Source: a virus. From it: a DNA stretch of 44,335 nucleotides. A model generated the notes under the pieces. That model searched no databases, had not been told where the DNA came from, and was given only the letters and a program-made list of their open reading frames with translations. The stretch is taken from the IMG/VR virus record IMGVR_UViG_3300037501_000085; one strand, 5' to 3'. Within the stretch, counting starts at the first letter, position 1. Each line of letters starts with the position of its first letter. Position numbers and translations under genes: made by a program. This document shows, piece after piece, positions 1-44,335 of this stretch.

Positions 1-468
1 GGTGGCGGAGTCGTGCGCAGCGACGATGGCGCGGCCGCGCGCCGCGACGGTGGCGCAGTCGTACGCCTTGACGGCGGCGTGGCCGTACGCCGCGACGGTA
101 GCGGAGCCGCGCGCCGTGACGGCGGCGGAGTCGGACGCCGTGACGGTAGCGGAGTCGTACGCCGTGACGGTGGCGTGGTCCAAGGCCTTAACGGCGGCGG
201 AGTCGTGCGCCGTGACGGTGGCGTGGCCGTACGCCGCGACGGTGGTGTGGTCGGACGCCGTGACGTCGGCGGAGTTGTACGCCGTGACGTCGGCGGAGTT
301 GTACGCCGTGACGGTGCCGGAGTCGTGCGCCGTGACGGTGGCGCAGTCGTACGCCTTGACGGCGGCGGAGTCGTGCGCCCCGACGTGGGCGTGGCCGTAC
401 GCCGTGACGGTGGCGTGGCCGTACGCCCTGACGATGGCGTGGCCGTACGCCGTGACGGTGGCGCGGCC
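1..468. repeat. Tandem 24-nt repeat array (coding, minus strand), left part
   Basis: Units such as gtacgccgtgacggtggcgtggcc recur head to tail with point variation. All six frames are open, which explains the artefactual plus-strand ORFs 2..799 and 13..600. Confidence 0.9.
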
Positions 469-831
469 GGATGCCGCAGCCACGACGCCGCCACCAACCT
501 CATGCTCACCATCGGTGAATACGTTGAGCTGCTCCAGGTCGGACACCGAGAGCCGACGCAACAGCCGCACGCGACGAGCGACCACCTTGCGATCTGGTGA
601 TTGCCACGCCCACGCGTCTCCGATTATGTCGGCCTCGGCCTCGAAGCATTCCGCCCCGTCGCGCCACCAGCGCGCGGGCTCGGTCGTCAGGTGTAGGCCT
701 CGATTGCAGAGCGAGATGTCGCCCTCGACCTCGTGCCACGCACCAGGCTCGCGCCCGTCCGGTAGGCTCCACGTCATCGTCCCGCCGTGGCAGGACTGAC
801 CGCTGATGAGCACCTTGTAGAGCGTGCTCAT
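1..831 (-). CDS. Octad-repeat (24-nt period) protein, 5' portion; continues across the window junction into 44301..44038
   Basis: Own translation of the minus strand. ATG at 829-831 forms an ATGA overlap with the stop of the upstream ORF. The N-terminal domain of about 121 aa reads MSTLYKVLISGQSCHGGTMTWSLPDGREPGAWHEVEGDISLCNRGLHLTTEPARWWRDGAECFEAE... It is followed by 19 consecutive 8-aa units (ATVTAYGH, AIVRAYGH, AHVGAHDS, AAVKAYDC, ATVTAHDS...). There is no minus-frame stop between 831 and 1. The ORF track misses it because its stop lies beyond the window start. Confidence 0.75.
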   Translation of the reverse strand, partial: MSTLYKVLISGQSCHGGTMTWSLPDGREPGAWHEVEGDISLCNRGLHLTTEPARWWRDGAECFEAEADIIGDAWAWQSPDRKVVARRVRLLRRLSVSDLEQLNVFTDGEHEVGGGVVAAASGRATVTAYGHAIVRAYGHATVTAYGHAHVGAHDSAAVKAYDCATVTAHDSGTVTAYNSADVTAYNSADVTASDHTTVAAYGHATVTAHDSAAVKALDHATVTAYDSATVTASDSAAVTARGSATVAAYGHAAVKAYDCATVAARGRAIVAAHDSAT

Positions 832-1291
832 GACTGCACCTCGAGTCGCCGCGCATGCTCGAGCGCTCTAGGGACGAGCGCGAGCAGTCGGACCGCCCGT
901 CTCCTCTTCTCCGCGCTGTCCGGCCACCACGGCCGGATGTCCCCCGTGCTCGGATACGGGACGCGATGCTGTCTCCCAGCGAGATCATGCCACGACGGTC
1001 CCGCCACTGCGTAGGCCAGGCGTCTGAGTCCGCTGCGGTGCTCGCAGCACGCCACATCCCGCGCCAGGCTACTGGAGGCACTCATCGCCTCCACGATATA
1101 TCGACGCAGGAGACTCACGACGTCACCTCGCGACTGTCTCTCATGCCCTCACCCATTGCAGCAACACGCACCAGGCTCGTGGCCACCGGTAGGCTCCACG
1201 TCATCGTCCCGCCGTGGCAGGACTGACCGTCGATGAGCACCTTGTAGAGCCTGCTGCTCAGGCGACGTCGGCCGCCGCGTTCCGTTTTCAT
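828..1291 (-). pseudogene. Decayed (frameshift plus in-frame TGA) tandem paralog of the N-terminal domain of the octad-repeat protein; includes ORFs 1115..1291 (58 aa, not in track) and 828..1118 (96 aa)
   Basis: Nt 1187-1246 are near-identical to 762-821, encoding LYKVLIDGQSCHGGTMTWSLP against LYKVLISGQSCHGGTMTWSLP. A 7-nt versus 8-nt difference just downstream breaks the frame. The homologous frame then hits TGA at 1149-1151 (CCNG*GHE against LCNRGLH). The 96-aa ORF carries RPWWPDSAE and AVRLLALVPRALE, matching RWWRDGAE and RRVRLLRRLSVSDLE of the full-length gene. Confidence 0.6.
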
Positions 1292-1333
1292 GTCCCTCAG
1301 GATAAGTTAGCTTAGCTGGCCATCAAGCCATAG

Positions 1334-1408
1334 TCAAGATTTTTTCTCTTCCTCGGTCGGGGTATCTCGGCTGAGAGCCTGCCGGATCTCTGGACCGGTC
1401 CAGACGTC
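1334..1408. repeat. Direct repeat, copy 1 (75 nt) of the 3' end of the primase-helicase gene
   Basis: tcaagattttttctcttcctcggtcggggtatctcggctgagagcctgccggatctctggaccggtccagacgtc is identical to 1657-1732 except for one T in the homopolymer (T6 versus T7). Confidence 0.95.
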
Positions 1409-1613
1409 ATGTCTCATCCTGCTCCTTTGGGGGGTCACCTGTATTGCCACAGGCCGCGCAATAAGGGGCCCGGAATCGGTTCCCCTCCGTCCAGGCCTCG
1501 GCCAAGGCATGCCAGAAGGCCCCGCGGGTCCCGGGTGTGACACCGGGAAATTGGGGGGCCAGGCGATCGTGGAGGGCATCCACGGACGCAATCCGGTCTT
1601 CGATCCAGGTCAT
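1407..1613 (-). CDS. Small hypothetical protein (68 aa) inside a repeat-bracketed cassette
   Basis: ATG at 1611-1613 gives MTWIEDRIASVDALHDRLAPQFPGVTPGTRGAFWHALAEAWTEGNRFRAPYCAACGNTGDPPKEQDET. Its TGA stop abuts repeat copy 1 exactly. The track ORF 1407..1817 is an upstream extension into the primase gene. Confidence 0.5.
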   Translation of the reverse strand: MTWIEDRIASVDALHDRLAPQFPGVTPGTRGAFWHALAEAWTEGNRFRAPYCAACGNTGDPPKEQDET

Positions 1614-1656
1614 TAGGGGAAGGTAGGCTAGCCTACCTAGATTGTCAAGACCTAGC
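1614..1656 (-). promoter_or_regulatory. Candidate sigma70-type promoter with embedded 18-bp palindromic operator; possibly a leaderless transcript
   Basis: The minus strand reads cTTGACA-atctaggtaggctagcc-TACCTT-ccccta-ATG. This is a consensus -35, a 17-nt spacer and a -10 with T1 A2 T6, with the ATG 6 nt later. The spacer holds the perfect palindrome aggtaggctagcctacct (1621-1638). Confidence 0.4.
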
Positions 1657-3991
1657 TCAAGATTTTTTTCTCTTCCTCGGTCGGGGTATCTCGGCTGAGA
1701 GCCTGCCGGATCTCTGGACCGGTCCAGACGTCGTGCTCCTCGGCCCATAGGATGAGCAGGTCCGTATTTAGGGCCCTGTAGTTCTGTTGGCTCAGACCCC
1801 GAGGTCTCCTCCAACATCGCCTGGCCTGGGCTAGGGCCGTGAGGGCTCGACCGATTTCGGCGATGGTAGGGGCCGGCATCTTAGCGTGCAGGTCCCAGCA
1901 CTCCTGTAGCCCATAGGCCGTGACCCACAGCTGGCCGTCTTTCACCCTGATCAAGTAGTCTCGCCGGGCATCGACACGGCGGGGGTCTCGAAGGTAGGCC
2001 AGGGCCCAGGCGCAGATCGCAGATCGAGTCCCTGACCGAACGGTCAAGGACCGGGCTAGCCGCTGGTCCGGCTGGCCGATCAAGAATCGGCCCTGAGGGA
2101 CGCCAGGCCGATGCTCTCGGAGCCACAAGGCATGCCGGGCCAGGCGGTTCTGGGTCACGATGCTGGCCGCGTCCACGGTCCGGAGGTATTGGGCCGCAGA
2201 ATCGTCGGGGATCCGGACGTGGTAGAATCGGTCCGATATCGCATCGATGTCGTGCTCGGTAAGGTCCTGGGCCGTGTCCAGGATGGTCTCTCGGTTGGCC
2301 GTCAGTACGACGCGGACACAACCTAAGATCGTGTTATCGTGGGCATATTTCTTGGTGTAGGGCCGGGCGTGATCGGCGATCAGGGAACGGAGATCGGCCA
2401 TTTTGGCGTAGCCCCGCATGTCTCTGGGGATGTCCTCGTCACCCAAGATGAGCGGACATTCTACGATCTGGTCCGACCAAGCCCCCAGGACCTGGTGTAG
2501 GGCCGTGGGCTTATCCGATTGCCAGAGCCGAGCCACGGCCGCGCCGAAGAGGCTCTTGCCCGTCGCGGGAGGGCCCGTAAACAGCAGAGCGGCGGCGGTG
2601 CGATGGAGATCCATGACGTGGGCCAGCCAGGTCTCCACGGCCGGGAGATCCGGGCCACACAGGAGGGAGAGCCAGTTGGCCACCTCGGAATCGTAGGCCG
2701 GAGTGAGGGCTCGACGGGGGCAGGGGGCTAGACGGAGGGTCTTGGCCGGACCGGGGTCCCAGGAGGGGACGTCCAGGGTCAGATCGTAGATCACCCGCTG
2801 GATCCGGTCCCCGTAGTCTGAGACCAGCTGGGACAGTGTCTTTGGGACGAGTCCCTGAGGGGTGGCCCGGTGGATCTCCACCCCGTGCGATGAGGCCGGG
2901 GCCAGAAGGTCCCGGCCCGAGTCCTCCCGATCAACGATCGGGATGTAGCGACCCCCGACCCAGATCCAGAAGTGGCGGTCCTGCTGGAGGATCCAGGCCC
3001 GATCGGTCGGGGGGCGCTCAGTCGAGGTGTAGGGTGTCTCCCGATGGGGGGTGGACGTGACGGACCAGGCCGCCCGGAGGAGGGCCCTTTGGGCCAGGAG
3101 CTGGCCCTGGGCATCAGCGTGGGCCTCCTCCCGGATCCGCTCCTGGGCTCTCTCGATTTTGGCCTGGGTCTCCTCCAGGGTCGGAGCGCCCATCAGCTGG
3201 AGGGACTGGGCGAAATGTTGAGCCAGGGTCTGAGGCTCCGCATCGGGCCAGAGCTGGGCCAGATCAGAGCAGAGCTGGAACGTCAGAGTATCCCGCTCCC
3301 CCTCCTGGGCGTAGGCCTCGCCCCGGACCAGGGCCTGGAGTGCCTGACCGAGATGGGCCCGGTTGGGATCCCTAGCCCGCAGCCAGGTCCGGGACAGGCC
3401 CTGGAGCTGGCTCCGTGTGATCTTGCGCGCCTGGGTCGGAGCCGGGGGGAGGACCGGGGAGGACAGGAGGGCGTCCACGTCCAGGGGTTCGCCCGGGAGG
3501 ACTACGTAGGAGTGATCGGACAGACGATCGGTCATGGGCACGAAAGGCCCAAAAAAGAATCGGGACGAATCCTTGCACTGACTATCCGGGGGGCAGGGCC
3601 AACGACCCGCTAGAAGGGCCCAGAACATACGCCATTCTTGGGCCAGGACCGGACGGGTGAATGGCACGCACAGACGTAGGGACCAAGGTTTGGTCGTATG
3701 GCTCCAGGTCGTATAGAGGAGGGCAGCCTGGCCGGAGGAGGTCAGGGCCTGGACCAGGTCCTGGACCTCCTGGGCCGATACTCGGTCTAGATCGAGGACG
3801 CCGAAGTGGACCTGGATCACGTTACGCTGCTGCCGTCGGCCCGTAAATTCCGCTGGACTGAAGGCCGGGAGGGAGTCCTTTGGTCCGGGGTGGTATTGGT
3901 GAGGGCCCAGAGCTTGGACGAAACTCTCCCAGGTCAGATCGTGCAGGCTCGGGTAGGGATCTTTGGCGCCCTGGAATAGGGAGATCTTCAT
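1652..3991 (-). CDS. Primase-helicase (primase-polymerase-like N-terminal region plus D5/P4-type SF3 P-loop NTPase)
   Basis: Start placed at ATG 3989-3991 (MKISLFQG..., ATGA overlap with the upstream stop) rather than track start 4114. The N-terminal region has FGVLDLDRV, TTWSH and CKDSSRFFFGP. The C-terminal region has Walker A FTGPPATGKSL and Walker B-like PLILGDED. Confidence 0.75.
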   Translation of the reverse strand: MKISLFQGAKDPYPSLHDLTWESFVQALGPHQYHPGPKDSLPAFSPAEFTGRRQQRNVIQVHFGVLDLDRVSAQEVQDLVQALTSSGQAALLYTTWSHTTKPWSLRLCVPFTRPVLAQEWRMFWALLAGRWPCPPDSQCKDSSRFFFGPFVPMTDRLSDHSYVVLPGEPLDVDALLSSPVLPPAPTQARKITRSQLQGLSRTWLRARDPNRAHLGQALQALVRGEAYAQEGERDTLTFQLCSDLAQLWPDAEPQTLAQHFAQSLQLMGAPTLEETQAKIERAQERIREEAHADAQGQLLAQRALLRAAWSVTSTPHRETPYTSTERPPTDRAWILQQDRHFWIWVGGRYIPIVDREDSGRDLLAPASSHGVEIHRATPQGLVPKTLSQLVSDYGDRIQRVIYDLTLDVPSWDPGPAKTLRLAPCPRRALTPAYDSEVANWLSLLCGPDLPAVETWLAHVMDLHRTAAALLFTGPPATGKSLFGAAVARLWQSDKPTALHQVLGAWSDQIVECPLILGDEDIPRDMRGYAKMADLRSLIADHARPYTKKYAHDNTILGCVRVVLTANRETILDTAQDLTEHDIDAISDRFYHVRIPDDSAAQYLRTVDAASIVTQNRLARHALWLREHRPGVPQGRFLIGQPDQRLARSLTVRSGTRSAICAWALAYLRDPRRVDARRDYLIRVKDGQLWVTAYGLQECWDLHAKMPAPTIAEIGRALTALAQARRCWRRPRGLSQQNYRALNTDLLILWAEEHDVWTGPEIRQALSRDTPTEEEKKILS
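1657..1732. repeat. Direct repeat, copy 2 (76 nt); the authentic 3' end of the primase-helicase gene
   Basis: See copy 1. It encodes ...HDVWTGPEIRQALSRDTPTEEEKKILS* in the primase frame. Confidence 0.95.
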
Positions 3992-4335
3992 AGGTCCAGG
4001 GCCTCCTGGAGAAGGTCTCGGGCCAGGAGCAAATTCGCGTACAAGCCACCACAGACCCAGTGCTCGGCCTCCATGGCCTCCAGGAGGGCCATGGTCGCGT
4101 CCAGGGACGAGCAAGCCGAGCGGAGGGCCGAGCGCATGGCGACGGCCCTCGTGTCGTCAGAGGCGTACTCTCGGACCAGACCCAGGGTCTGGGCCCCGGT
4201 GATAAGTCTTTGTTGGAGTTGAGGTTTCCTTATGTCCTGCCCTTGGAGCCAGCGCGCGGCCGCGTAAACGGAACAAGGCGCGGCCTCGGCTGCTAGCCGG
4301 TAGGCGTCCGGGGTCAGGGGGATGGGAGGGGGCAT
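3988..4335 (-). CDS. Hypothetical helical protein (115 aa), first gene of the long minus-strand chain
   Basis: Its ORF shares an ATGA overlap with the downstream primase-helicase. The translation is non-repetitive (…LGLVREYASDDTRAVAMRSALRSACSSLDATMALLEAMEAEHW…). No family recognised. Confidence 0.55.
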   Translation of the reverse strand: MPPPIPLTPDAYRLAAEAAPCSVYAAARWLQGQDIRKPQLQQRLITGAQTLGLVREYASDDTRAVAMRSALRSACSSLDATMALLEAMEAEHWVCGGLYANLLLARDLLQEALDL

Positions 4336-4461
4336 GTCCTACGGGGTACCAGTGTGGGAGAGAGTTGTCCAGGATCTTCCGATGACGCGCTATGACGCAG
4401 TCGCTTGCACACAGGTAAACGGCTGGCCGCTATTCTTTACTAGACGAGCGAAAATTGAATA

Positions 4462-4511
4462 TTTGTGGTTTCTACACCTACATATTATGATGTAGGTGTA
4501 GAAACCACAAA
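4462..4511. repeat. Perfect 22-bp inverted repeat with a 6-nt loop
   Basis: tttgtggtttctacacctacat-attatg-atgtaggtgtagaaaccacaaa, read directly from the sequence. Confidence 0.95.
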
Positions 4512-4613
4512 GATCAACACTCGGCCGTTAAGGGCACTTTTTTTGGATCTTAGTTTGCTGGACAGTTGGCAAGGATTTCGCTCACTTAGTATGCAATAGT
4601 TAAAGCTATTTGC

Positions 4614-4658
4614 AGCTGTGTGCTGTGTGCATTGAACGTTTGATTGGTTTGATTGGTT
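4614..4658. repeat. Short tandem iteron-like repeats
   Basis: gctgtgt occurs about 2.3 times (4614-4630) and gtttgattg about 2.3 times (4638-4658). Confidence 0.8.
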
Positions 4659-4712
4659 CATTTCTTGCATGGACCTTGACCCGGTCCGGGTCCGTGATTA
4701 GGCTCCGGGGGC

Positions 4713-5321
4713 ATGGTGTGTGCATGGAACCCGGAGAAGCCCTGGGCTCGTCAGCCCTGCGACTGCGACCTTAGTTGGGTGTGGTTCCAGGAGTATTTGG
4801 GCCTGCCCACGCCGCGGAACATGGCCCGGCTCCTCCGGCGGCCTGTACCCATGTCCCAGGACCAACTGTACATCTGGTCCTGGGAAAACATGTGGCTGGA
4901 CCGGGCCGCGGCCTGGGACGCGCACCTGGACCGGCTCCGGGAGGAGACCTGGGAGCGGGCCACGGAGAGTACTGTCCAGGATCTAGTCAGGGACCTGGCC
5001 CGGGACCTCCGAGGCGTCCGCAAGCTAGGGGCCGAGGAGATCCGCCGGCTCAGGGCTGCGGCCCGGGAGGACGGGCCTCCGGGCCTGATCCAGCCCGGCC
5101 TGGCCGTCCGGGCTGTCCTCGGGGCCGCGCCCCTAGAGCACGCCCTGGCTCAGGCCGCGGGCGTGCTCCCGACCCTGGACTCGAGTCGGGCAGAGGAGGA
5201 GGCCCTGGTCCAGGCCCTCGAGTCCGGGCTCTTGACCTCGGAGGATCTGCACCTCTATCGTGATCTCCGTGATCGGGTGGAGCAGGTGACCAGGCGACGA
5301 GGGCCCGGTGCGGCTGCCTAG
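4713..5321 (+). CDS. Hypothetical protein (202 aa), first gene of the plus-strand module; possibly DNA-binding
   Basis: This is the only frame here with an unbiased translation: a W-rich N-terminal segment (WFQEYLGLPTPRNMARLLRR…WSWENMWLDRAAAWDAHL) followed by a charged helical region. The overlapping alternative-frame ORFs are Pro/Gly/Arg-rich. Confidence 0.55.
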   Translation: MVCAWNPEKPWARQPCDCDLSWVWFQEYLGLPTPRNMARLLRRPVPMSQDQLYIWSWENMWLDRAAAWDAHLDRLREETWERATESTVQDLVRDLARDLRGVRKLGAEEIRRLRAAAREDGPPGLIQPGLAVRAVLGAAPLEHALAQAAGVLPTLDSSRAEEEALVQALESGLLTSEDLHLYRDLRDRVEQVTRRRGPGAAA

Positions 5322-5637
5322 GGCCCCGGAAGGGGCTCGGAGTCCGGAGGTGCTCAGGCTCACCCTGACCTCGGACGGGGGCCCGGACCTGACTACGGTC
5401 ACGGCCGTGGCCATGGTCATCCGAGGTCTGGACGGGTTCAGCCGGGACCTCACGGGTGGGTCCTGGGTCGCCAGCTCGGCCACGGCCGGGACCTGGACCA
5501 GGGCCTGGGCGAGCGACGGATCGGACCTCCCGGCGTCAGGAGTGTACGAGGGGTTCCCCCGGATCACGACCCCGAGCGGGGTCTACTCCTGCGAGCCCGT
5601 ACGATTCGAGGTCTACGAATTCGCGAGGGTGGCCTGA
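5308..5637 (+). CDS. Hypothetical beta-rich protein (109 aa)
   Basis: GTG start overlaps the preceding gene, and a TGATG junction links it to the next gene. The translation LRLTLTSDGGPDLTTVTAVAMVIRGL…GVYSCEPVRFEVYEF looks like a small virion-type beta-sandwich domain. Confidence 0.5.
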   Translation: MRLPRAPEGARSPEVLRLTLTSDGGPDLTTVTAVAMVIRGLDGFSRDLTGGSWVASSATAGTWTRAWASDGSDLPASGVYEGFPRITTPSGVYSCEPVRFEVYEFARVA

Positions 5638-6569
5638 TGGCGACCCTGCCGATCTTCGACCCCGGGTTTTCCCTGGGGTCCGTGTATTTCCAGGGCTCTG
5701 GCGGCCCGGACGAGGATCCGAGCCTGGTTTGGGACGACACGGACAAGCGGCTGGTCCTGGGGACGAGCACGGCCACCAAGCGCGGTCGGCTCCACGTGGC
5801 CCACCTGACCTCGCCGGCCTCGGAGCGGGGTGGGATCCTGTCCGAGGGCCCGGTAGCGTGCGGGGTGGATGCTGGGGCTGGCTCGTTCGGTTCGGCGAGC
5901 CCGTATGTCAGCATGATCCTGGGCTCGGTCGTAGACGGGGCCCCGTTCGGTGTGGGGGGACAGGGCGGGCTCTATGCGGTTGCCAGATCTGGTGCGGCCG
6001 GAGTCCCTCCGACTAACGCCCCCTACGTCGGTCTGTCGTGTTGGGACTGGGGTGACGGTCTGACGGGGGTTGATCAGGGCCGGACTCTCTACTACGGAGG
6101 AGGAGGCTGGGCGGCCCCGGACTGTACGAGTCATCAGTTCTACACGTCTGACACCTACACCGAGACTACGGACACGGGCCTACTCAGGTTCGGGATTACC
6201 AATTCCCTGGTCTACGTGCGGGAGGCACAATTCCGTTTGGAGGGGGACATATCCAGCACCTTCAGTACGAGCCAAAATAATTGGAATCCCGCGGGTTTGT
6301 CCACGGCCCAGACGATCCGGGCTACGGCCTCGGCCGCGGCCCTGTCGATCACGGGATTGGCCGGGGGAGGGGATGGTAGGATCATAATCCTGCACAATGT
6401 GGGTGCGACGAATAGCTTCACTTTGGTCCATCAATCGACTAGCTCGTCGGCGGCCAATCGATTTGCCCTGCCCGGGGCCACGGACGTGGTCATCCCGACG
6501 GACGGATCCGTGACTCTGAGGTACGATGCCTCCTCGTCTAGGTGGCGACTCCTAGCCAAGGCCCTATGA
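5637..6569 (+). CDS. Fibre-like or virion-associated protein (310 aa)
   Basis: Gly/Ser/Thr-rich. The C-terminal block is ITGLAGGGDGRIIILHNVGATNSFTLVHQSTSSSAANRFALPG…VTLRYDASSSRWRLL. It is translationally coupled on both sides. Confidence 0.6.
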   Translation: MATLPIFDPGFSLGSVYFQGSGGPDEDPSLVWDDTDKRLVLGTSTATKRGRLHVAHLTSPASERGGILSEGPVACGVDAGAGSFGSASPYVSMILGSVVDGAPFGVGGQGGLYAVARSGAAGVPPTNAPYVGLSCWDWGDGLTGVDQGRTLYYGGGGWAAPDCTSHQFYTSDTYTETTDTGLLRFGITNSLVYVREAQFRLEGDISSTFSTSQNNWNPAGLSTAQTIRATASAAALSITGLAGGGDGRIIILHNVGATNSFTLVHQSTSSSAANRFALPGATDVVIPTDGSVTLRYDASSSRWRLLAKAL

Positions 6570-6979
6570 CCCGACGTGACGCCCTCACCCTCTATCTGCG
6601 GCAGCTCCGACGGAGGGGTCAGGCCGAAGTCGAGGCCTTTTGTTTGGCCTCGAAGGAGGATCAGGACCAGGCCCTCCAGGCCTGGCTCACCCGGCAGGTG
6701 GCCCAGGTGGACGAGGCCCTGGCCGCTATCCAGGCCGAGCCCCCGGCCCCGGCCCTGGACTCGCCCGAGGAGATCCGGGCGGCCTGGATCCGGGAGCAGG
6801 CCCAGGACGTGACCGGGGCCGTCAGACTGGCCGCCCTTCTCTCGGGGGATGCCCTGGACCTGGACACCTGGGCCGAGGACCGGCGGACCAAGCTCCAGGC
6901 CAGGGCCGAGGCGAACGCCCGGCGGGTGGAGGACCTCCAGGCGATCCGCGATTCCCTGGCCCGAGGGCTCGAGCCATGA
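6566..6979 (+). CDS. Coiled-coil protein (137 aa)
   Basis: ATG 6566 forms an ATGA overlap with the previous stop. The Ala/Glu/Arg/Leu-rich translation looks helical. Another ATGA overlap leads into the next gene. Confidence 0.55.
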   Translation: MTRRDALTLYLRQLRRRGQAEVEAFCLASKEDQDQALQAWLTRQVAQVDEALAAIQAEPPAPALDSPEEIRAAWIREQAQDVTGAVRLAALLSGDALDLDTWAEDRRTKLQARAEANARRVEDLQAIRDSLARGLEP

Positions 6980-8097
6980 GCCAGATCCACGCCGAGCGGA
7001 CCCAGACGAACGTACCCCTCTACCTGTCCGTGACCCGGACCGGGGCCGGGGGCGTGGCCGGGCTGACGGCCGTGGTCGCGATCCGGGACGGTCAATCCAC
7101 CACGAGCTACCTGGATTGGTCTGACCAAACTTTCAAGACATCGGGCTGGACCACCCGGGAGGCGGCCATGGCCGATCTCGGGGGAGGATTCTACGCCCGG
7201 GCCGGCGGACTCAATCTCTCCACGATCACGAATCTGCCCGGGACCACGACTCATCTGGTAGCCGAGTATCGCGTGTCCGGGATCTACGCCGGAGTGTCGA
7301 CCGATCATATCCTCCTGGCGACCACGGTCTACGCCCCTGCTACTTCGGCCCAGGCCACGGATATTCAGGCCCGGCTCCCGGCGACCCTGAGCGGGGGCCG
7401 GATGCGGGCTCAGGTGGAGGGAATGGATGCGGGTACGGTCACGGCCTCGGCCGTGGCCACGGACGCAATCGACGGGGACGCCCTGGCCGCGTCCGCGGTC
7501 TCGGAGATCCAGGCCGGTCTGGCCACGGCTGCGGCTCTGGCCCTGGTCCAGGCAGATACGGACGATATCCAGGCCCGGCTCCCGGCGACCCTCCTAGGCG
7601 GACGCATGCGGGCTCACGTGGAGGACCTGGACCCCGGGACCATCACCAGCTCCGAGGCCCCGGCCCTGGCGAATCTGGACGTGGCCGTCTCGAGCCGGGC
7701 GATCCCCGGGGATGCCATGGCCCTGACCGTCCTGGCCCGGGACGCCGTGGCGGACGCGATCTGGGACGAGGCCCTGGCGGGGCACCTGGTGGCCGGCTCG
7801 ACGGGCAAGGCCCTGGACGACGCCAAGGACGCGGCGGATGCCTCGAGTATCGCCACGGCCGTCTTGGGGGCCTCGGTCTCGGGGCATCCCGTGGGCTCCC
7901 TCGGGGACGTCGTCCAGCTCCTCCGGCGCATGGCGCGCAATCGTCTTGAGGAGGCCCCGGGCTCGCCCGGGACCCTGATCCTCTATGCGGACGACGGGAT
8001 CACACCCCTGATCACCTGGACCCTGACGGATTTCCAGGGCAACGCTACTCTGGGCCAGGTCGGGGTCCCGAGCCGGCGGACGGCCGGGGCCCCGTGA
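6976..8097 (+). CDS. Fibre-like repeat protein (373 aa)
   Basis: Start moved to ATG 6976 (MSQIHAERTQTNVPLYLSVTRTGAGGVAGL…). An internal module duplication about 68 aa apart reads DIQARLPATLSGGRMRAQVEGMDAGTVTAS against DIQARLPATLLGGRMRAHVEDLDPGTITSS. It also carries AIWDEALAGHLVAGSTGKAL, a motif I recall from phage fibre-like proteins. Confidence 0.65.
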   Translation: MSQIHAERTQTNVPLYLSVTRTGAGGVAGLTAVVAIRDGQSTTSYLDWSDQTFKTSGWTTREAAMADLGGGFYARAGGLNLSTITNLPGTTTHLVAEYRVSGIYAGVSTDHILLATTVYAPATSAQATDIQARLPATLSGGRMRAQVEGMDAGTVTASAVATDAIDGDALAASAVSEIQAGLATAAALALVQADTDDIQARLPATLLGGRMRAHVEDLDPGTITSSEAPALANLDVAVSSRAIPGDAMALTVLARDAVADAIWDEALAGHLVAGSTGKALDDAKDAADASSIATAVLGASVSGHPVGSLGDVVQLLRRMARNRLEEAPGSPGTLILYADDGITPLITWTLTDFQGNATLGQVGVPSRRTAGAP

Positions 8098-8312
8098 GCT
8101 TCCTGGGTCGGGCCGGGCATATACCCCTGGGTCGGGCCGGGGTCTCGTTCGGATATGGGGCCGAGTCCACGATAGGCCTCCTCCAGACCGTGATCACCCT
8201 GGCCGCCGACGTCGAGCCCCTCACCCTGACCTCAGTAGTGGCCCCGGCTCTCGTGCTCGGGAGCCAGGTCTCCCCCCTGGACCTGGTCTCCCGTATCGAG
8301 CCCTCAGATTAG
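8094..8312 (+). CDS. Small hypothetical protein (72 aa)
   Basis: GTGA overlap with the preceding gene. Its end overlaps the stop of the convergent DUF932-like gene by 4 nt. Confidence 0.4.
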   Translation: MSFLGRAGHIPLGRAGVSFGYGAESTIGLLQTVITLAADVEPLTLTSVVAPALVLGSQVSPLDLVSRIEPSD

Positions 8313-9370
8313 ACGGAGAGCCCAGCATCCCTCAGGATCTGGCGGGCGATCTGACCCGCGTCGATCCCATGATCCTGGGCCGCATCGACGGTCATGCGCT
8401 CGATCGTGCCATCGGCCATGACCACCTCGACCAGCTCCTGAATTTGCTGGATTCGCTCGGCCCGGGCGCCGAACAGGAGAGAATCCAAGGCGTCCCCGCC
8501 TCGGACCTCACGGCGAGTACCGTCGGCGTGACGGTCGACGAGCCAGGTCGCGGCATTCCAGAGGGTGGCGAGGTTCCCGGGGCGAGTACCCACACGGTTC
8601 TCCGGCCTGGCCGCGGCCAGGCGGGCCTCCGTTCGGAGGTTCTCCGCTCGGGTTTTGGCGTTGGCCGAGGCCGATTCCTCGGCCTCGGGAAAGAGGGCGT
8701 CAAAGGCGGCCTGGGCCGCGGCCCGGGGCAGGATCGTCTGCTCGGCCCGGGCGAAAAGATCCCGGACCTTCTCCCCGGTCTTGATCGTGTCCGCGATCGT
8801 GGCCTGGAGGACCTGCACCTTGGTCTCGAGGGAGGCCGTGTGCCGGAGCTTGGCCATGCCCTCCCCATCCGAGCGCATGGCCGCGGACAGGGTGTTGGCA
8901 CACACGACACGGACCGACGTCGTACCAGCGGTCAGGCGCATGGAGCCGTCGAAAGAATCCGCGAGAATCAACTGCGTCCGGATCCCGTCACCCCCGACGT
9001 CGAACGTGGCGAGCACACGGGACCCGTCCCGGAGGGCGAAGGCCCCGGTCGGGGCCGCGCCCGCGACCACGGCAGCCCGGCACAGGTCCCGCCACTCGGC
9101 TGGGGTCGTGGCCCGGTAACGGTCCCCGACTGCGCCGAGGACTGCGGAGGGGTGGCCCTGGTAATGTCCGACCAGGGCCTGGACCGGGGCTCGGAGGCCT
9201 GTGGACGTGTGCAGGGGCATCAGATCCAGAGCGACGGGCCACGCGCCCGAGGATTCGCCCAGGGCGATTTGATCCTCGGCCGTGGTCATCACACCGATAT
9301 CCTCCAGGCCGTGCCAGGAGGACGCCGTCAAAACCCCGCGATGCCATTCGTGTGCCATATTCTCATCCAT
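8309..9370 (-). CDS. DUF932-family (phage/plasmid-like) protein
   Basis: It shows the pattern W-H-G…LGAVGDRY…ILADSFDGSMRL…RVVCANTL…LRHT, characteristic as recalled of DUF932/TIGR03299 proteins. The start is ambiguous among 9403, 9370 and 9358. Confidence 0.7.
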   Translation of the reverse strand: MDENMAHEWHRGVLTASSWHGLEDIGVMTTAEDQIALGESSGAWPVALDLMPLHTSTGLRAPVQALVGHYQGHPSAVLGAVGDRYRATTPAEWRDLCRAAVVAGAAPTGAFALRDGSRVLATFDVGGDGIRTQLILADSFDGSMRLTAGTTSVRVVCANTLSAAMRSDGEGMAKLRHTASLETKVQVLQATIADTIKTGEKVRDLFARAEQTILPRAAAQAAFDALFPEAEESASANAKTRAENLRTEARLAAARPENRVGTRPGNLATLWNAATWLVDRHADGTRREVRGGDALDSLLFGARAERIQQIQELVEVVMADGTIERMTVDAAQDHGIDAGQIARQILRDAGLSV

Positions 9371-9454
9371 CCTTTCGTCTTTCGACGGACTCAGGTAAAG
9401 CACGGGTTATGCCAACCTTGGAACAGGAATTTTTGGGATTTGGCTGGATCAGGG

Positions 9455-9472
9455 TATGACATAGATGTCATA
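9455..9472. promoter_or_regulatory. Operator-like palindrome 1: TATGACAT-AG-ATGTCATA
   Basis: Perfect 8+2+8 palindrome, embedded in a longer imperfect palindrome of about 70 bp (about 9427-9497). Confidence 0.6.
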
Positions 9473-9509
9473 GTTGATCCAGAAAATCCCAAATCTTGGG
9501 GCTTTTCGC

Positions 9510-9527
9510 TATGACATCCATGTCATA
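9510..9527. promoter_or_regulatory. Operator-like palindrome 2: TATGACAT-CC-ATGTCATA
   Basis: It has the same half-sites as palindrome 1, with centres 55 bp apart (about 5 helical turns). Confidence 0.6.
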
Positions 9528-29776: not shown

Positions 29777-31016
29777 ATCTCCGGGCCCTGACCTCTTCCG
29801 GGGTCAGGACCTCCCGGTCCAGGTAGATCGCATCGGTGTCGGCCAGGAGTTTGTCCGCCTCTCGTCGCTCTTTGGGAGTCTCCTGGAATAGGCTGGGAAA
29901 TATGACCCCATGCTCTCCCCGGATGCCCAGGGCCAGGGCCGTCACGTGGACGAGCTGGATCAGGATCGGGGCCAGGATGTTGGCCTGATCGGATTTGATC
30001 CGATCGTAGAAAATCCGCAGGTCCGTGTCCCCCGTGGCGTTCAAACCGGCGGGGGCCTGGCCCATCAAGAGAGTGACCGGGATCTCGGATGAGGCGGCCA
30101 GACGGTTGGCCGCTCGGTCCATCATCTCGGGGACCCCCGCGAATTGTGTGGCAATTTTTTCGTACCTCTCCCCGCCCTCGGCGTCCAGCATGACTGCCCT
30201 GGCCACCGATCGACCCATGTCCAGGAGCACGGCCCGACTCATCAGATCCTGCTTTTGGCCTCCGGCGAGGGCCGAGATCAGGCCCCGCATGGTGAATACG
30301 GCCTGACTGGCATCGCTCAGCATCAGGGTCCCGGCCTGGTGGGCCGTGTTGAACATCTGTAGGGCCGGGTAGCACACCTGGAGGACGGACAGGTCCCAGC
30401 CGTCTAACTCCTCCTGCTCCTCCTGGGCCGTATGGGCGCCGGAGAATCGGATCGTCCGGGACACGTGGACCGTGGACGACTGCCCGCGGATGGGCTGGAT
30501 CCGGTAGACCTCGGGCTCCTGGTAGTCCGGACTGGCCGGGTCCTCATTCCGGCGCTCGACCGTGAGTCGACGGCGATCGTAGACCTGAAGATAGGCCACA
30601 CCCCGGCCCACGATCCTGTCCAGAGCGAGGGGCTGGTCCGCCGGGAGGCCATCGTCCACGCCCAGGATCAGGAGGGCCCCCCCGAACAGACGGCCCCACA
30701 GGAGCCCGTCCAGGACCTGCCGGGTCGCGTCCAGGTCCGTCAGGGTGGTCTGGATCTGGTCCGAGCCCGGGCCCGTCACCCGGTAGCCCTGCCGGAGCAT
30801 TTCCCGGGGGACTATCTCCACGATCTTCCTGGCCATGTCGTCGCCATGGTAGAGCGCAGACAGTTCGGGGTCGGACAGGCGGAGGGACGGGGCGAAGATC
30901 GTGTGACTCAGTTTGTCCCGGCTCGTCCCGAAGCCCGTGAACGGATTCTGCCAGCCGTCGGCCCGGCCCAGGCCGAGGGCTCCGGATAGATCGCGGAGAC
31001 GGTCATGGATCGTCAC
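29727..31016 (-). CDS. Portal protein (DUF1073-type)
   Basis: …GWQNPFTGFGTSRDKLSHTIFAP…LSDPELSALYHGDDMARKIVEIVPREMLRQG… It lies directly downstream of TerL (ATGA overlap). Confidence 0.75.
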   Translation of the reverse strand: MTIHDRLRDLSGALGLGRADGWQNPFTGFGTSRDKLSHTIFAPSLRLSDPELSALYHGDDMARKIVEIVPREMLRQGYRVTGPGSDQIQTTLTDLDATRQVLDGLLWGRLFGGALLILGVDDGLPADQPLALDRIVGRGVAYLQVYDRRRLTVERRNEDPASPDYQEPEVYRIQPIRGQSSTVHVSRTIRFSGAHTAQEEQEELDGWDLSVLQVCYPALQMFNTAHQAGTLMLSDASQAVFTMRGLISALAGGQKQDLMSRAVLLDMGRSVARAVMLDAEGGERYEKIATQFAGVPEMMDRAANRLAASSEIPVTLLMGQAPAGLNATGDTDLRIFYDRIKSDQANILAPILIQLVHVTALALGIRGEHGVIFPSLFQETPKERREADKLLADTDAIYLDREVLTPEEVRARRFGLAPSSTPPSPPPSP

Positions 31017-32479
31017 GTATCCTCACCTCTAACACGGGCCATCGCCCGGCTGAAGTCCTCGCCGTGCCGTCGCAGACGGCCTAGGGCCTGGCTGGTCATG
31101 TCCACCATGTCATCATGGGCCGATCGAGGGAAGGCCTCGTGCTGGGCCTGATAGGCTTTCACCCACCCGGCCAGGCTCGGGTGAGGGATCAGGACCCGGC
31201 CCGAAGCGAAGGCCGGGGTGCAGGCATGGGCCCGGGCCTCCTTCCCGCCCTCGGGCGAAACGAGGGTTATCCCTCGGATCTCCCGGCGGAGAGCGTCTTC
31301 TACGGCGGGCCCGTTGGCCTTGTCCTCGACCAACTTATCGTGAGCCCTGGGCCACTTAGCGGTCATGTGGCGCATGGCGTCAAGGGTCTGGGTGAAGGTC
31401 ATGCGCTCACAGATTAGGTCCATGAGTAGATACTGACCCCGGGCGGCCCACCAGACCCCCCCGCAGACGAAATCCGACCCGTCCGAGCCCTTGAAGGTCA
31501 GGTCCCAGGACTGGATCTGAATCCCATGCCCCTCCGGGGGGAGGGGCTGGCCTCGGTCCTGATCGTCAGGGTGCCAGTATCGCCACCAGTCCCGGCGGAA
31601 GATCCCCCCTCCCCGCCGGGTCGGGCGTTGCTGAAGCTGCGCCGCAGCCACGTCCGGTCCCATCTCCTCCACCTCCAGCCGGCGGACGGCCTCCTCGGGG
31701 TAGCGGTCGGGGCAGAGGAGGGCCCCGGGCTCGGTTCGCCGGTCTCCTCCCCAGGCCGTCCGGCAGGGCTCGTCCTCCTCGTATCGCATGGGTAGACGGA
31801 GGAGGGTGTATCCGGCTCGGATGCATTCCCCGGCCAGGTCATCCTCGTGTAGACGCTGCATGATCACGACCCGGCGGAAGGACCGAGGATCCCGGGCTCG
31901 GCTGGCCATCGTCTGTCGCCACCAGGAGCTGACCGCCTCCAGGGCCGTCCGAGAGTGATTCACGCCTCCACTGGCGTCCCGAGGCTTGATCGGATCGTCC
32001 ACGATCTGGATGTCGGCGTGGCGCCCGGTCACCTTCCCGGCCACGGACGTGGAAAAGCGGAAACCCCCGAGAAGGTTGGAGAAATTGGCCAGGGCCAGGT
32101 TGCCCTTAGGGCATAGATTTCCCCAGCGCTCCAGGTACCAGTCCGAGCGGAGCAGGGTGATCAATTTGGCTGCGTCCCGGGTGGCCAGAGTGCCGTCGTA
32201 ACTGGCACAGATCCAGGACGTTCGGGGTCGCAAAGACCATTCCCAGGCCTGCCAGAAGACCCCGACGGCCAAGGACTTGCCTGTCCCCGGGGGGACGTTG
32301 ATCACCAACCTGGTGATCTCTCCCCGACTCACGGCCTCCAGGTGTCGGCATATCTCCTCCAGGTGCCAGGAGGGAACGAAGCCCGGGCCTTCTACGTGGG
32401 GCCAGGCAAGGAGGAGGAATTGGTAGAGGCCCCCCGTGCGGATGAGGGCCCGATCGATGGAGGGGAGACTAGCCCCCAT
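31013..32479 (-). CDS. terL: Terminase large subunit
   Basis: Walker A VINVPPGTGKSL and Walker B DIQIVDDP, with acidic nuclease-type residues in the C-terminal half. Located upstream of the portal gene. Confidence 0.85.
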   Translation of the reverse strand: MGASLPSIDRALIRTGGLYQFLLLAWPHVEGPGFVPSWHLEEICRHLEAVSRGEITRLVINVPPGTGKSLAVGVFWQAWEWSLRPRTSWICASYDGTLATRDAAKLITLLRSDWYLERWGNLCPKGNLALANFSNLLGGFRFSTSVAGKVTGRHADIQIVDDPIKPRDASGGVNHSRTALEAVSSWWRQTMASRARDPRSFRRVVIMQRLHEDDLAGECIRAGYTLLRLPMRYEEDEPCRTAWGGDRRTEPGALLCPDRYPEEAVRRLEVEEMGPDVAAAQLQQRPTRRGGGIFRRDWWRYWHPDDQDRGQPLPPEGHGIQIQSWDLTFKGSDGSDFVCGGVWWAARGQYLLMDLICERMTFTQTLDAMRHMTAKWPRAHDKLVEDKANGPAVEDALRREIRGITLVSPEGGKEARAHACTPAFASGRVLIPHPSLAGWVKAYQAQHEAFPRSAHDDMVDMTSQALGRLRRHGEDFSRAMARVRGEDT

Positions 32480-44037: not shown

Positions 44038-44335
44038 TTACAACCTCCTCCGATGGGTGCGGGCTGGCCGGCGAAACGATGTTACCTCCGACTGTGGCGG
44101 CGCCGCGACGGTGGCGCAGTTGCGCGCCGTGACGGTGGCGGAGTCGTGCGCAGCGACGATGGCGCGGCCGCGCGCCGCGACGGTGGCGCAGTCGTACGCC
44201 TTGACGGCGGCGTGGCCGTACGCCGCGACGGTGGCGGAGCCGCACGCCGTAACGGTGGCGCAGTCGTACGCCTTGACGGTGGCGCAGTCGTACGCCTTGA
44301 CGGTGGCGGAGTCGTGCGCAGCGACGATGGCGCGG
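44038..44335 (-). CDS. Octad-repeat protein, 3' portion (stop TAA at 44038-44040, abutting the ParB-like ATG)
   Basis: Own translation: …AIVAAHDS ATVKAYDC ATVKAYDC ATVTACGS ATVAAYGH AAVKAYDC ATVAARGR AIVAAHDS ATVTARNC ATVAAPPQSEVTSFRRPARTHRRRL*. The frame (first codon bases at positions divisible by 3) matches that of 1..831 once the 34-nt overlap is collapsed. Confidence 0.7.
   Translation of the reverse strand, partial: RAIVAAHDSATVKAYDCATVKAYDCATVTACGSATVAAYGHAAVKAYDCATVAARGRAIVAAHDSATVTARNCATVAAPPQSEVTSFRRPARTHRRRL
44098..44335. repeat. Tandem 24-nt repeat array (coding, minus strand), right part
   Basis: Same unit family as 1-468. Nt 44134-44232 are identical to nt 1-99. Confidence 0.9.

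What the first reader, a model, noticed from the sequence alone, without database searches (positions are those of the whole stretch)
1..831. Hidden gene spanning the window junction: N-terminal globular domain fused to about 28 tandem octad (24-nt) repeats
Seen in sequence: the minus strand carries an ORF that the supplied track misses. ATG 831 opens a 121-aa domain (…KVLISGQSCHGGTMTWSLPDGREPGAWHEVEGDISLCNRGLH…RWWRDGAE…). Head-to-tail 8-aa units follow, with a fixed A-x-V-x-A core and variable positions 2, 4 and 6-8 (ATVTAYGH, AAVKAYDC, ATVTAHDS, ADVTAYNS…). The ORF leaves the window at nt 1 and re-enters in the same frame at the right end, stopping at 44038 directly before the ParB-like ATG. 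Joined across the 34-nt overlap it is about 364 aa. Inference: an 8-residue period with alternating small hydrophobic residues suggests a beta-solenoid, as in ice-nucleation-type octads (AGYGSTxT). From memory, uncharacterised phage and bacterial proteins pair a similar C-x-x-G-x-H N-domain with ATAGDxST-type octads. The gene sits first in the early replication/recombination operon, so a host-takeover or anti-defence role (for example a nucleic-acid mimic or surface scaffold) is conceivable but entirely unproven.
Basis: partly seen in the sequence, partly recalled or inferred. Interest (0 to 1): 0.8.

Follow-up and report, generated by a model that had tools for sequence, protein, structure and literature searches.

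The report
Phage repeat-rod protein with RIIB-like head
The two ends of this phage contig carry one real gene for a protein with a small conserved head domain, distantly related to part of the classic T4 RIIB protein, followed by about 28 eight-residue repeats predicted to form a rigid beta-solenoid rod; it belongs to a large but uncharacterised phage protein family, so it is genuine and mildly interesting rather than new.

Summary
The minus-strand ORF starts at ATG 831 and leaves the window at nt 1. It re-enters in frame through a 34-nt terminal overlap and stops at TAA 44040-44038, directly before the ParB-like ATG. The joined product is 364 aa: a 121-aa head, 28 octads (x-x-A-x-V-x-A-x) and a 19-aa basic tail. 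The repeat number is not fixed, because nt 1-99 are also identical to 44134-44232, a 7-octad higher-order repeat.

The protein belongs to a large uncharacterised phage family (Pfam DUF7666 head plus octad array; PHROG 15773). A profile search found about 3,000 representative clusters. AlphaFold2 gives a confident model (pLDDT 85) with 28 regular strand-turn units, which supports a beta-solenoid.

The head links to the C-terminal domain of T4 RIIB by fold and by transitive profile matches.

The gene is not first in its operon. The near-neutral array argues against a nucleic-acid mimic. The ice-nucleation resemblance is only the shared period.

Function remains inferred. I favour an early accessory or host-interaction factor, possibly counter-defence by analogy with RIIB.

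Verdict: new member of a known, unstudied kind.

The parts
469..831 (-). Codons 1-121: N-terminal globular head domain (DUF7666-type, RIIB-C-like), start ATG 831-829
   Evidence: The translation is. Family alignments A1/A2 show invariant K6, S13, G16, G17, P24, G30, W32, C42, H47, T49, P52, K82, R89 and L90. Pfam DUF7666 scores E 0.0019, below its cut-off. hhalign of A2 against C-type DUF7666 gives prob 95.4%, E 2e-8. AF2 pLDDT is about 90.
1..468 (-). Left part of the octad array (codons 122-277, 19.5 octads), running off the window at nt 1
   Evidence: TRF finds a 24-nt period, 19.3 copies, score 450.
44098..44335 (-). Right part of the octad array (codons 278-345 at 44098-44301, plus the 34-nt overlap 44302-44335 that duplicates window 1-34)
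   Evidence: It is in frame with the left part across the 34-nt overlap.
44038..44097 (-). 19-aa basic, predicted-disordered tail (PPQSEVTSFRRPARTHRRRL) and stop TAA 44040-44038, abutting the ParB-like ATG at 44037. The family's usual C-terminal cap is absent.
   Evidence: One search gives the sequence. pLDDT is below 50 for residues 341-364. No cap motif occurs in any frame of the window.
839..842 (-). GAGG Shine-Dalgarno-like site 7 nt upstream of ATG 831
   Evidence: Read directly from the sequence.
828..1118 (-). Upstream 96-aa ORF whose TGA stop (830-828) overlaps ATG 831-829 as ATGA, an arrangement typical of translational coupling within an operon
   Evidence: It has no detectable homologues or conserved counterpart upstream of family members.
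44134..44232 (.). 99-nt stretch identical to window 1-99: the core of a 168-nt (7-octad) higher-order repeat that makes the junction and the copy number ambiguous
   Evidence: Longest common substring. Unit similarity peaks at lag 7.
1165..1255 (-). 92%-identical partial duplicate (1-nt gap) of 737-828, that is codons 2-32 of the gene, about 424 nt upstream
   Evidence: blastn and tblastn.

Best explanation
SHOWN
- This is a genuine minus-strand protein-coding gene. It was split only because the assembler opened a circularly closing phage contig inside the gene's own repeat array.
- The product, about 364 aa as assembled, has three parts:
  (i) A 115-120-aa alpha/beta head of the DUF7666 type with a conserved C-x-x-G-L-H motif.
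  (ii) About 28 octads with inward-type A-x-V-x-A cores and G/D/N turn residues. AlphaFold2 models them as 28 regular four-residue strands separated by four-residue turns, that is a beta-solenoid rod.
  (iii) A short basic disordered tail in place of the family's usual cap.
- It belongs to a very large, functionally uncharacterised family found in early/replication regions of phages and prophages.
- It sits mid-operon between a primase/helicase-like gene and a ParB-like gene. Its start overlaps the upstream stop, and its stop abuts the downstream start.

INFERRED
- The protein is a cytoplasmic early accessory factor. The conserved head does the conserved job.
- The solenoid is a rigid platform or spacer of adjustable length. 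Its solvent-exposed residues (octad positions 1, 2, 4, 6, 8) vary from unit to unit.
- The head is remotely homologous to the C-terminal domain of T4 RIIB. RIIB is needed by T-even phages to overcome RexAB and is sensed by CARD/gasdermin systems (PMC10312443).
- The most likely functional class is therefore host interaction or counter-defence during early infection. I put about 0.25-0.3 on that function. The gene, family and fold assignment rate about 0.85.
For: Gene and frame
- The head aligns to family members at 38-54% identity with 14 invariant residues.
- The plus-strand products have no family hits.
- Across the 28 units there are only 9 differences from the consensus at third codon positions, against 94 at first and second positions. 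The A3, V5 and A7 codons are essentially fixed, which fits only the minus-strand frame.

Family
- The search for homologous proteins gave 954 hits, and the best carry PF24703 plus octads.
- PHROG 15773 matches at E 3e-28.
- The exhaustive profile search gave 3,042 representative clusters at E <= 1e-3 and 1,321 at E <= 1e-10.
- 81 of the 137 newly listed proteins among the 150 best hits carry at least 3 octads.

Fold
- The AF2 model has mean pLDDT 85.3 and pTM 0.77. Confidence is 96-98 over the first 12 or so octads.

RIIB link
- Foldseek against BFVD aligns the head (103-118 columns, rmsd 3.4-5.8 A, prob 0.90-1.00) to RIIB proteins of at least 8 phages and to giant-virus DUF7666 proteins.
- The DUF7666 domain of P0029 hits RIIB PHROGs at E 4e-4 and 8e-4.
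- hhalign of A2 against A4 gives 95.4% (E 2e-8), and A4 against the T4 RIIB C-terminal profile A3 gives 93.8% (E 1.8e-7).

Context
- Homologues in Squirty, a Porphyromonas phage and three metagenomic contigs all lie among early or replication genes.
Against: - The direct comparison of the N-type head with RIIB is weak: hhalign prob 14.7%, E 0.0018.
- T4 RIIB does not hit Pfam DUF7666, and no N-type member hits an RIIB PHROG.
- The window protein itself is below Pfam's DUF7666 cut-off, 19.1 against 27 bits.
- No family member has any published functional data.
- RIIB's own mechanism is unknown, so the analogy transfers a phenotype, not a mechanism.
- AF2 tends to over-regularise repeats. I could not inspect coordinates, so the coil size (2 or 3 octads per turn) and the oligomeric state are unresolved.
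- The protein lacks the conserved C-terminal cap, so it could be a truncated or decaying copy.
Confidence: 0.6

Rival explanations
1. The octads form a T4 gp5-like, three-chain intertwined beta-helix. The protein would then be a trimeric needle or fibre, possibly virion-associated.
For: - Pfam Gp5_trimer_C is the best Pfam hit (E 9.9e-7, 29.3 bits), and many homologues have it precomputed.
- gp5C is also built of 8-residue repeats (PMC3004832, found).
- PHROG 9992 'baseplate assembly protein' hits weakly at 2.6e-6.
- A 72-nt (3-octad) period scores slightly better than the 24-nt period at the right end.
Against: - The score is below Pfam's cut-off of 30.9 bits.
- The motif differs: A-x-V-x-A with a G/D/N turn, against V-x-G.
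- The gene sits in the replication module, far from the tape-measure and tail genes at about 14-22 kb. Homologues are likewise in early regions.
- The AF2 monomer is already confident.
- Repeat-to-repeat HMM matches are prone to compositional convergence.
Confidence: 0.1
2. It is a decaying or truncated copy of a family member with little or no function. It would have been left by recombination at the ParB module boundary and kept open only by high GC and the repeat structure.
For: - It lacks the C-terminal cap present in nearly all N-type homologues aligned.
- A 92-nt partial duplicate of its 5' end lies 424 nt upstream, indicating recent rearrangement.
- The array is stop-free in four frames regardless of coding.
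Against: - All 14 invariant head residues are retained.
- There is a Shine-Dalgarno site, and the start and stop are tightly packed against the neighbouring genes.
- The A/V/A core codons are perfectly kept over 28 units.
- The AF2 model is confident.
Confidence: 0.1
3. The solenoid is a nucleic-acid mimic, like Qnr/MfpA or Ocr, that decoys a DNA-binding host enzyme or restriction system.
For: It is a rod-shaped repeat protein in an early operon. The same head domain is fused to pentapeptide repeats in another phage (Rheinheimera phage Barba28A).
Against: - The array is near neutral, with pI 6.72 and 16 D+E against 14 K+R.
- The surface positions are mainly T, Y, H, S, C and K.
- Homologues often have K/R/E mixed at position 6.
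Confidence: 0.05
4. It is not a gene. The feature would be a non-coding or antisense-coded tandem DNA repeat, or an assembly artefact at the contig ends.
For: - The contig ends fall inside the repeat and the join is ambiguous.
- Long plus-strand ORFs exist at 2-799 and 13-600.
Against: - The head domain has thousands of homologues, and only in the minus-strand frame.
- The plus-strand products have no family matches.
- The same head-plus-array architecture occurs in finished isolate phage genomes.
Confidence: 0.03

Closest known systems
Pfam DUF7666 (PF24703) proteins with octad arrays / PHROG 15773 (e.g. metagenomic P0001, P0002, P0012; mycobacteriophage Squirty gp51)
   Same: The head domain has the same conserved residues and C-x-x-G-L-H motif. 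The 8-residue S/A-A-T-V-x-A-x-G/D repeat is the same. The early-region location in phages is the same.
   Different: - The window protein scores below the Pfam cut-off.
- It has one of the longest arrays seen: 28 octads, against 9-20 typically and 27-31 at most.
- Its turns are unusually rich in His and Cys.
- It lacks the C-terminal cap.
- Squirty gp51 and relatives have the reverse domain order, with the array first and the head last.
T4 RIIB (C-terminal domain)
   Same: The small alpha/beta domain shares an initial Y/W-K-V strand, a P-G, the C-x-x-G-L-H motif and a late K...R. This is supported by fold similarity and transitive profile-profile matches. Both are early phage proteins.
   Different: RIIB has an N-terminal HTH and a middle region instead of a solenoid. 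It works with RIIA. Direct sequence similarity to the window head is weak. The window protein is not an RIIB orthologue.
T4 gp5 C-terminal triple-stranded beta-helix (PF22178)
   Same: Both have 8-residue repeats with alternating small inward-facing residues. It is the best Pfam hit to the array.
   Different: - The score is below the cut-off, and the motif is different.
- There is no OB-fold or lysozyme part.
- The gene is not in a tail module.
- Here a single chain is predicted to fold confidently on its own.
Ice-nucleation protein octads / insect TxT antifreeze solenoids
   Same: The period is 8, and many units here carry T-V-T on the strand.
   Different: There is no sequence-family match. 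T at position 6 is replaced by K/R/E/A in many units and in homologues. The protein is cytoplasmic and encoded by a phage.
Pentapeptide-repeat and ankyrin-repeat proteins carrying DUF7666/DUF5758 heads (phages, giant viruses)
   Same: The logic is the same: a repeat scaffold fused to the same small head.
   Different: The scaffold type and repeat period differ.

Membership tests
Pfam DUF7666 (PF24703) | Match to the family HMM at or above the gathering score (27 bits) | tested here: not met
   19.1 bits, E 0.0019, residues 4-99 against profile positions 3-92. Close homologues P0002 (35.8 bits) and P0012 (43.5 bits) pass.
Pfam DUF7666 (PF24703) | Homology of the head to bona fide DUF7666 domains at profile level, with conserved C-x-x-G-L-H | tested here: met
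   hhalign of A2 against A4 gives prob 95.4%, E 2e-8 over 86 columns. A4 member P0029 hits PF24703 at 7.9e-12. C42 and H47 are invariant in A2 and G45 is in at least 90% of its sequences.
PHROG 15773 (octad-array phage proteins, unknown function) | Significant match to the PHROG profile | tested here: met
   E 3.3e-28, 99.9 bits. The match is to the array. The profile's C-terminal part corresponds to a C-type DUF7666 head.
N-type DUF7666-octad subfamily | C-terminal cap motif (V-x-L-x3-A-x-[IV]-D-[RQ]-R) after the array | tested here: not met
   The cap is absent from the protein and from all six frames of the window.
T4 RIIB | C-terminal RIIB domain | tested here: inconclusive
   The direct comparison A2 against A3 gives prob 14.7%, E 0.0018. 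The transitive link A4 against A3 gives 93.8%. Foldseek gives prob 0.90-1.00 to RIIB proteins of at least 8 phages. No RIIB PHROG is hit by N-type heads.
T4 RIIB | N-terminal helix-turn-helix region and RIIB-length architecture | tested here: not met
   T4 RIIB shows HTH hits at residues 7-50. The window protein has none, and its head is N-terminal and followed by repeats.
T4 RIIB | Partner rIIA gene; rII phenotype (needed on Rex+ lysogens) | not tested
   No rIIA search of the window was made. The phenotype needs experiments.
T4 gp5 C-terminal beta-helix (PF22178) | HMM match at or above the gathering score (30.9 bits) | tested here: not met
   29.3 bits, E 9.9e-7.
T4 gp5 C-terminal beta-helix (PF22178) | Three intertwined chains; part of a tail spike with OB-fold/lysozyme; tail-module location | tested here: not met
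   There are no such domains. The gene lies in the replication module. The trimeric state itself is not testable with these tools.
Ice-nucleation protein repeats | AGYGSTxT-type octads within 16/48-residue super-repeats; Pfam Ice_nucleation match | tested here: not met
   There is no such Pfam hit at E <= 1. The consensus here is G/D-S/H-A-T-V-T-A-Y, and the only super-period is lag 7, from a recent duplication.
DNA-mimic solenoids (Qnr/MfpA type) | Pentapeptide period and strongly acidic surface | tested here: not met
   The period is 8 and the array pI is 6.72.

The most novel reading that the evidence does not exclude
The DUF7666 head may be the portable functional module of RIIB. If so, the thousands of head-plus-solenoid proteins, this one included, would be an unrecognised and phylogenetically very broad class of RIIB-like immune-evasion factors. 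They occur in actinophages, Bacteroidota phages, CPR-associated phages and giant viruses. They would also be potential triggers of effector-sensing defences. The octad rod would supply a length- and surface-variable platform that evolves by unit gain and loss and by diversification of exposed residues.
Probability: 0.15. Interest if true: 0.65.

Novelty: new member of a known kind. Interest (0 to 1): 0.4.

Why it matters
For this genome, the result adds a real 364-aa gene and shows that the contig closes on itself inside that gene. It also warns that the repeat number is not reliable.

More generally, these arrays break short-read assemblies: three other contigs fetched here end in or at the array. 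Members of this abundant family are therefore systematically truncated, mis-framed or missed.

The remote link between the head and the C-terminal domain of RIIB is the most useful outcome. The mechanism of RIIB is still described as unclear in the 2023 preprint read here (PMC10312443). A minimal, widely distributed version of one of its domains, fused naturally to different scaffolds and present in genetically tractable mycobacteriophages, gives a concrete experimental handle. That link is a family-level lead, not proof of function for this protein.

Tried and rejected
- PDB sequence searches with the protein and with the head profile found nothing meaningful.
- Foldseek against the PDB found no significant match, either with the whole model (best E 0.35, generic beta-helices) or with a head-only model (best E 2.1). 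A weak Arr/ADP-ribosyltransferase hit (prob 0.44) did not reappear with the head-only model, so I dropped it.
- Literature searches for DUF7666, DUF5758, PF24703, PF19062, PF20080 and ALTTAQ returned no papers.
- PADLOC gave only low-complexity hits, to Csx3 and to a Type I specificity subunit.
- The promoter/terminator scan of 1-5000 found nothing near the gene.
- I looked for a conserved upstream partner ORF. There is none.
- I searched for the missing C-terminal cap in other frames. There is none.
- I sought an independent assembly across the junction:
  - The only other contig with the ParB gene breaks in the array.
  - Three upstream products are not on record.
- Genome-collection scans did not resolve the host:
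  - The single-protein scan found nothing.
  - A degenerate DNA pattern found only two MAG contigs, from Parcubacteria and Polyangiaceae.
- A DGR-like adenine-targeted mechanism for unit variation was rejected, because the variable sites include C/T positions.
- A 2- or 3-octad super-period that would reveal coil size was not found. Only lag 7 stands out.

Full report
**1. What is in the sequence**

On the minus strand an ORF opens at ATG 831-829. A GAGG site lies 7 nt upstream, and the ATG overlaps the TGA stop of an upstream 96-aa ORF as ATGA. The ORF is open down to nt 1.

The first 34 nt of the window equal the last 34 (1-34 = 44302-44335). This is the only terminal overlap between 10 and 400 nt. 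After removing one copy, the frame continues from 44301 to TAA 44040-44038, directly followed by the ATG (44037) of a ParB_N-like gene.

The joined product is 364 aa:
- Residues 1-121 are non-repetitive.
- Residues 122-345 are exactly 28 octads.
- Residues 346-364 are a basic tail.

In the octads position 5 is V in 28/28 units, position 7 is A in 28/28 and position 3 is A in 26/28. Position 1 is D, G or N. Positions 2, 4, 6 and 8 vary. Tandem Repeats Finder scores the two halves 450 and 249 at period 24.

**2. Caveats on the join**

Window 1-99 is also identical to 44134-44232. As joined, the array holds a 7-octad (168-nt) higher-order duplication with a 99-nt exact core, and unit similarity peaks at lag 7.

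A short-read assembler can traverse such a loop any number of times, so 28 units is a provisional figure. The one other public contig carrying the identical ParB gene (Logan, SRR12686701; 7,177 nt, 100% identical) starts at window 44159, inside the array. It gives no independent support. Searches for contigs carrying three upstream gene products found none.

Contiguity is nevertheless very likely. The left end has a head plus an array with no end. The right end has an array plus a stop with no beginning. Homologues have exactly head + array + short C-terminus.

**3. Which frame codes**

The array is stop-free in four frames, and the codon-aligned antisense frame even reads as a mirror octad (AVTVAxSY). 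Three lines of evidence pick the minus-strand frame.
- Only that frame continues into a domain with homologues. Alignments A1/A2 are 38-54% identical to the head, with K6, S13, G16, G17, P24, G30, W32, C42, H47, T49, P52, K82, R89 and L90 invariant.
- The plus-strand products hit no Pfam family of relevance.
- Among the 28 units there are only 9 differences from the consensus at third codon positions, against 94 at first and second positions. The Ala3, Val5 and Ala7 codons are fixed, even to the choice of GCC against GCG.

The third pattern indicates recent amplification or homogenisation of one unit. Amino-acid diversification is confined to five residues per unit.

**4. What family it is**

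PHROG 15773 (unknown function) matches at E 3e-28. Pfam gives Gp5_trimer_C (29.3 bits, cut-off 30.9) on the array and DUF7666 (19.1 bits, cut-off 27) on the head. Both are below threshold.

The 5.8-billion-protein search gave 954 hits. The best (P0001, P0002, P0008, P0012 and others; 46-55% identity) have the same head, carry PF24703 above threshold, and are followed by S-A-T-V-x-A-x-G/D octads.

An exhaustive HMMER search with the head profile found 3,042 representative clusters at E <= 1e-3 and 1,321 at <= 1e-10. Of the 137 newly listed proteins among the 150 best hits, 81 carry at least 3 consecutive octads. Arrays are typically 9-20 units and reach 27-31 at most.

Other architectures exist:
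- Array first and head last (Squirty gp51, P0024, P0029, P0057, P0113).
- An unrelated N-domain plus array (a Porphyromonas phage protein, P0014, P0021).
- Tandem heads fused to a 300-aa C-terminal region (P0134, P0142).
- Head plus pentapeptide or ankyrin repeats.

In annotated phages all members are 'hypothetical protein'. They lie in early or replication regions, as do three metagenomic homologues. No paper mentions DUF7666 or related accessions.

**5. Differences from the family**

Nearly all N-type homologues end with a conserved cap (V-x-L-x3-A-x-[IV]-D-[RQ]-R). This protein does not, and no frame of the window encodes one. Its array is among the longest seen. Its turn positions are rich in His and Cys where the family has Ser.

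**6. Structure**

AlphaFold2 with alignment A1 gives mean pLDDT 85.3 and pTM 0.77. It predicts a compact head, then 28 repeats of four strand residues and four turn residues. Confidence is 96-98 over the first dozen octads and falls to about 80 towards the end. The tail is disordered.

This supports a beta-solenoid. I had only confidence values and DSSP, not coordinates. I therefore cannot say whether a coil has two or three octads, nor exclude a gp5-like trimer.

Foldseek against the PDB finds nothing significant for the whole model (best E 0.35, assorted beta-helices) or for a head-only model (best E 2.1). PDB sequence searches are empty.

**7. The head resembles the C-terminal domain of RIIB**

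Foldseek against predicted viral structures returns DUF7666 proteins (E 4e-8). With the head alone aligned (103-118 columns, rmsd 3.4-5.8 A, prob 0.90-1.00) it also returns RIIB proteins of at least eight phages, plus giant-virus ankyrin/DUF7666 proteins.

At sequence level the evidence is as follows:
- The C-type DUF7666 domain of P0029 hits two RIIB PHROGs (E 4e-4 and 8e-4).
- Profile-profile comparison gives N-type head against C-type DUF7666 at 95.4% (E 2e-8).
- C-type DUF7666 against a T4 RIIB C-terminal profile gives 93.8% (E 1.8e-7).
- The direct N-type against RIIB comparison is weak (14.7%, E 0.0018), but it aligns the same motifs: Y/W-K-V, P-G and C-x-x-G-L-H.
- T4 RIIB does not hit Pfam DUF7666, and N-type heads do not hit RIIB PHROGs.

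I therefore call the relationship remote and transitive. It is credible but not proven.

RIIB is needed by T-even phages to overcome RexAB. Its expression alone triggers CARD/gasdermin defence, and its mechanism is unknown (PMC10312443).

**8. Genome context**

The window is a complete-looking tailed-phage genome of 65% GC. On the minus strand it carries terminase, portal, protease, tape measure, DNA polymerase A, a DEAD helicase, a PD-(D/E)XK nuclease, ParB and a primase/helicase-like protein. It is distant from all isolates, with TerL at most 38% identical.

Reading the minus strand around the circle, the order is:
- the divergent region at about 4335-4713;
- a 115-aa ORF;
- the primase/helicase-like ORF (4114..1652);
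- small ORFs;
- the target gene;
- ParB.

The gene is thus internal to the operon, not first.

**9. Mechanism**

Shown: it is a real gene, a family member, a head plus a regular repeat rod, and placed in an early operon with its start overlapping the upstream stop and its stop abutting the ParB start.

Inferred: it is a cytoplasmic early accessory protein, since I see no obvious signal peptide (by eye, not tested). The conserved head carries the activity, and the solenoid provides a rigid module of adjustable length with a diversified surface. By analogy with RIIB the most likely class is host interaction or counter-defence, at about 0.25-0.3.

Rivals:
- gp5-like trimeric needle, 0.1.
- Decaying copy, 0.1.
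- DNA mimic, 0.05. It is disfavoured by pI 6.7.
- Not a gene, 0.03.

**10. Verdict**

This is a new member of a known but unstudied family. Interest is moderate and rests mainly on the RIIB lead and on the assembly lesson.

Noticed in passing
window 1165-1255 (-) versus 737-828 (-): A 92-nt copy (92% identical, one 1-nt gap) of codons 2-32 of the target gene lies about 424 nt upstream, inside a 58-aa ORF (1291..1115). Identity stops abruptly, and the gap shifts the frame. It looks like a recent partial duplication or recombination scar.
   Followed up: partly
window 1-831 and 44038-44335, plus strand: The array is stop-free in four of six frames. The codon-aligned antisense frame reads as a mirror octad (AVTVAxSY) and gives a 364-codon open stretch with no family match. 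Gene callers can easily pick the wrong strand. P0090 from another assembly is visibly mis-framed in its array.
   Followed up: yes
L001 (starts at window 44159); L002 10001-10383; L009 4510-5129: Public contigs carrying this gene or its homologues repeatedly end in or at the octad array. The family is probably systematically truncated or missed in short-read metagenomes.
   Followed up: partly
window 1-468 and 44098-44335 (array): Turn positions here are unusually rich in His, Cys and Asp (position 2: S11, H8, C6, R3; position 8: Y14, H5, R4), whereas the family consensus is Y-G/D-S. Ladders of possible metal ligands along the rod are conceivable but untested.
   Followed up: no
window 1-468 and 44098-44335 (array): Between-unit differences are almost all non-synonymous: 94 at codon positions 1 and 2 against 9 at position 3. 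They are confined to five of the eight residues. This suggests diversification of exposed residues on a recently amplified unit.
   Followed up: partly
window 4713-9514 (+): This is the only plus-strand block. Its three long ORFs (310, 485 and 381 aa) have no PHROG hit. ORF 4713-5321 has a weak small-terminase-like hit, although the large terminase is at 31013-32479 on the other strand.
   Followed up: no
proteins P0134, P0142, P0139, P0223: The N-type head also occurs without octads, fused to an unrelated C-terminal region of about 200-350 aa: as a tandem pair in P0134, P0142 and P0139, and as a single copy in P0223. This is a further uncharacterised architecture of the same domain.
   Followed up: no
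window 1652-4114 (-): The listed 820-aa ORF starts at TTG 4114. An ATG at 3991, right after the stop of the 115-aa ORF (3988-4335), is the more plausible start. The product is primase/helicase-like (DUF5906, PHROG DNA primase).
   Followed up: partly
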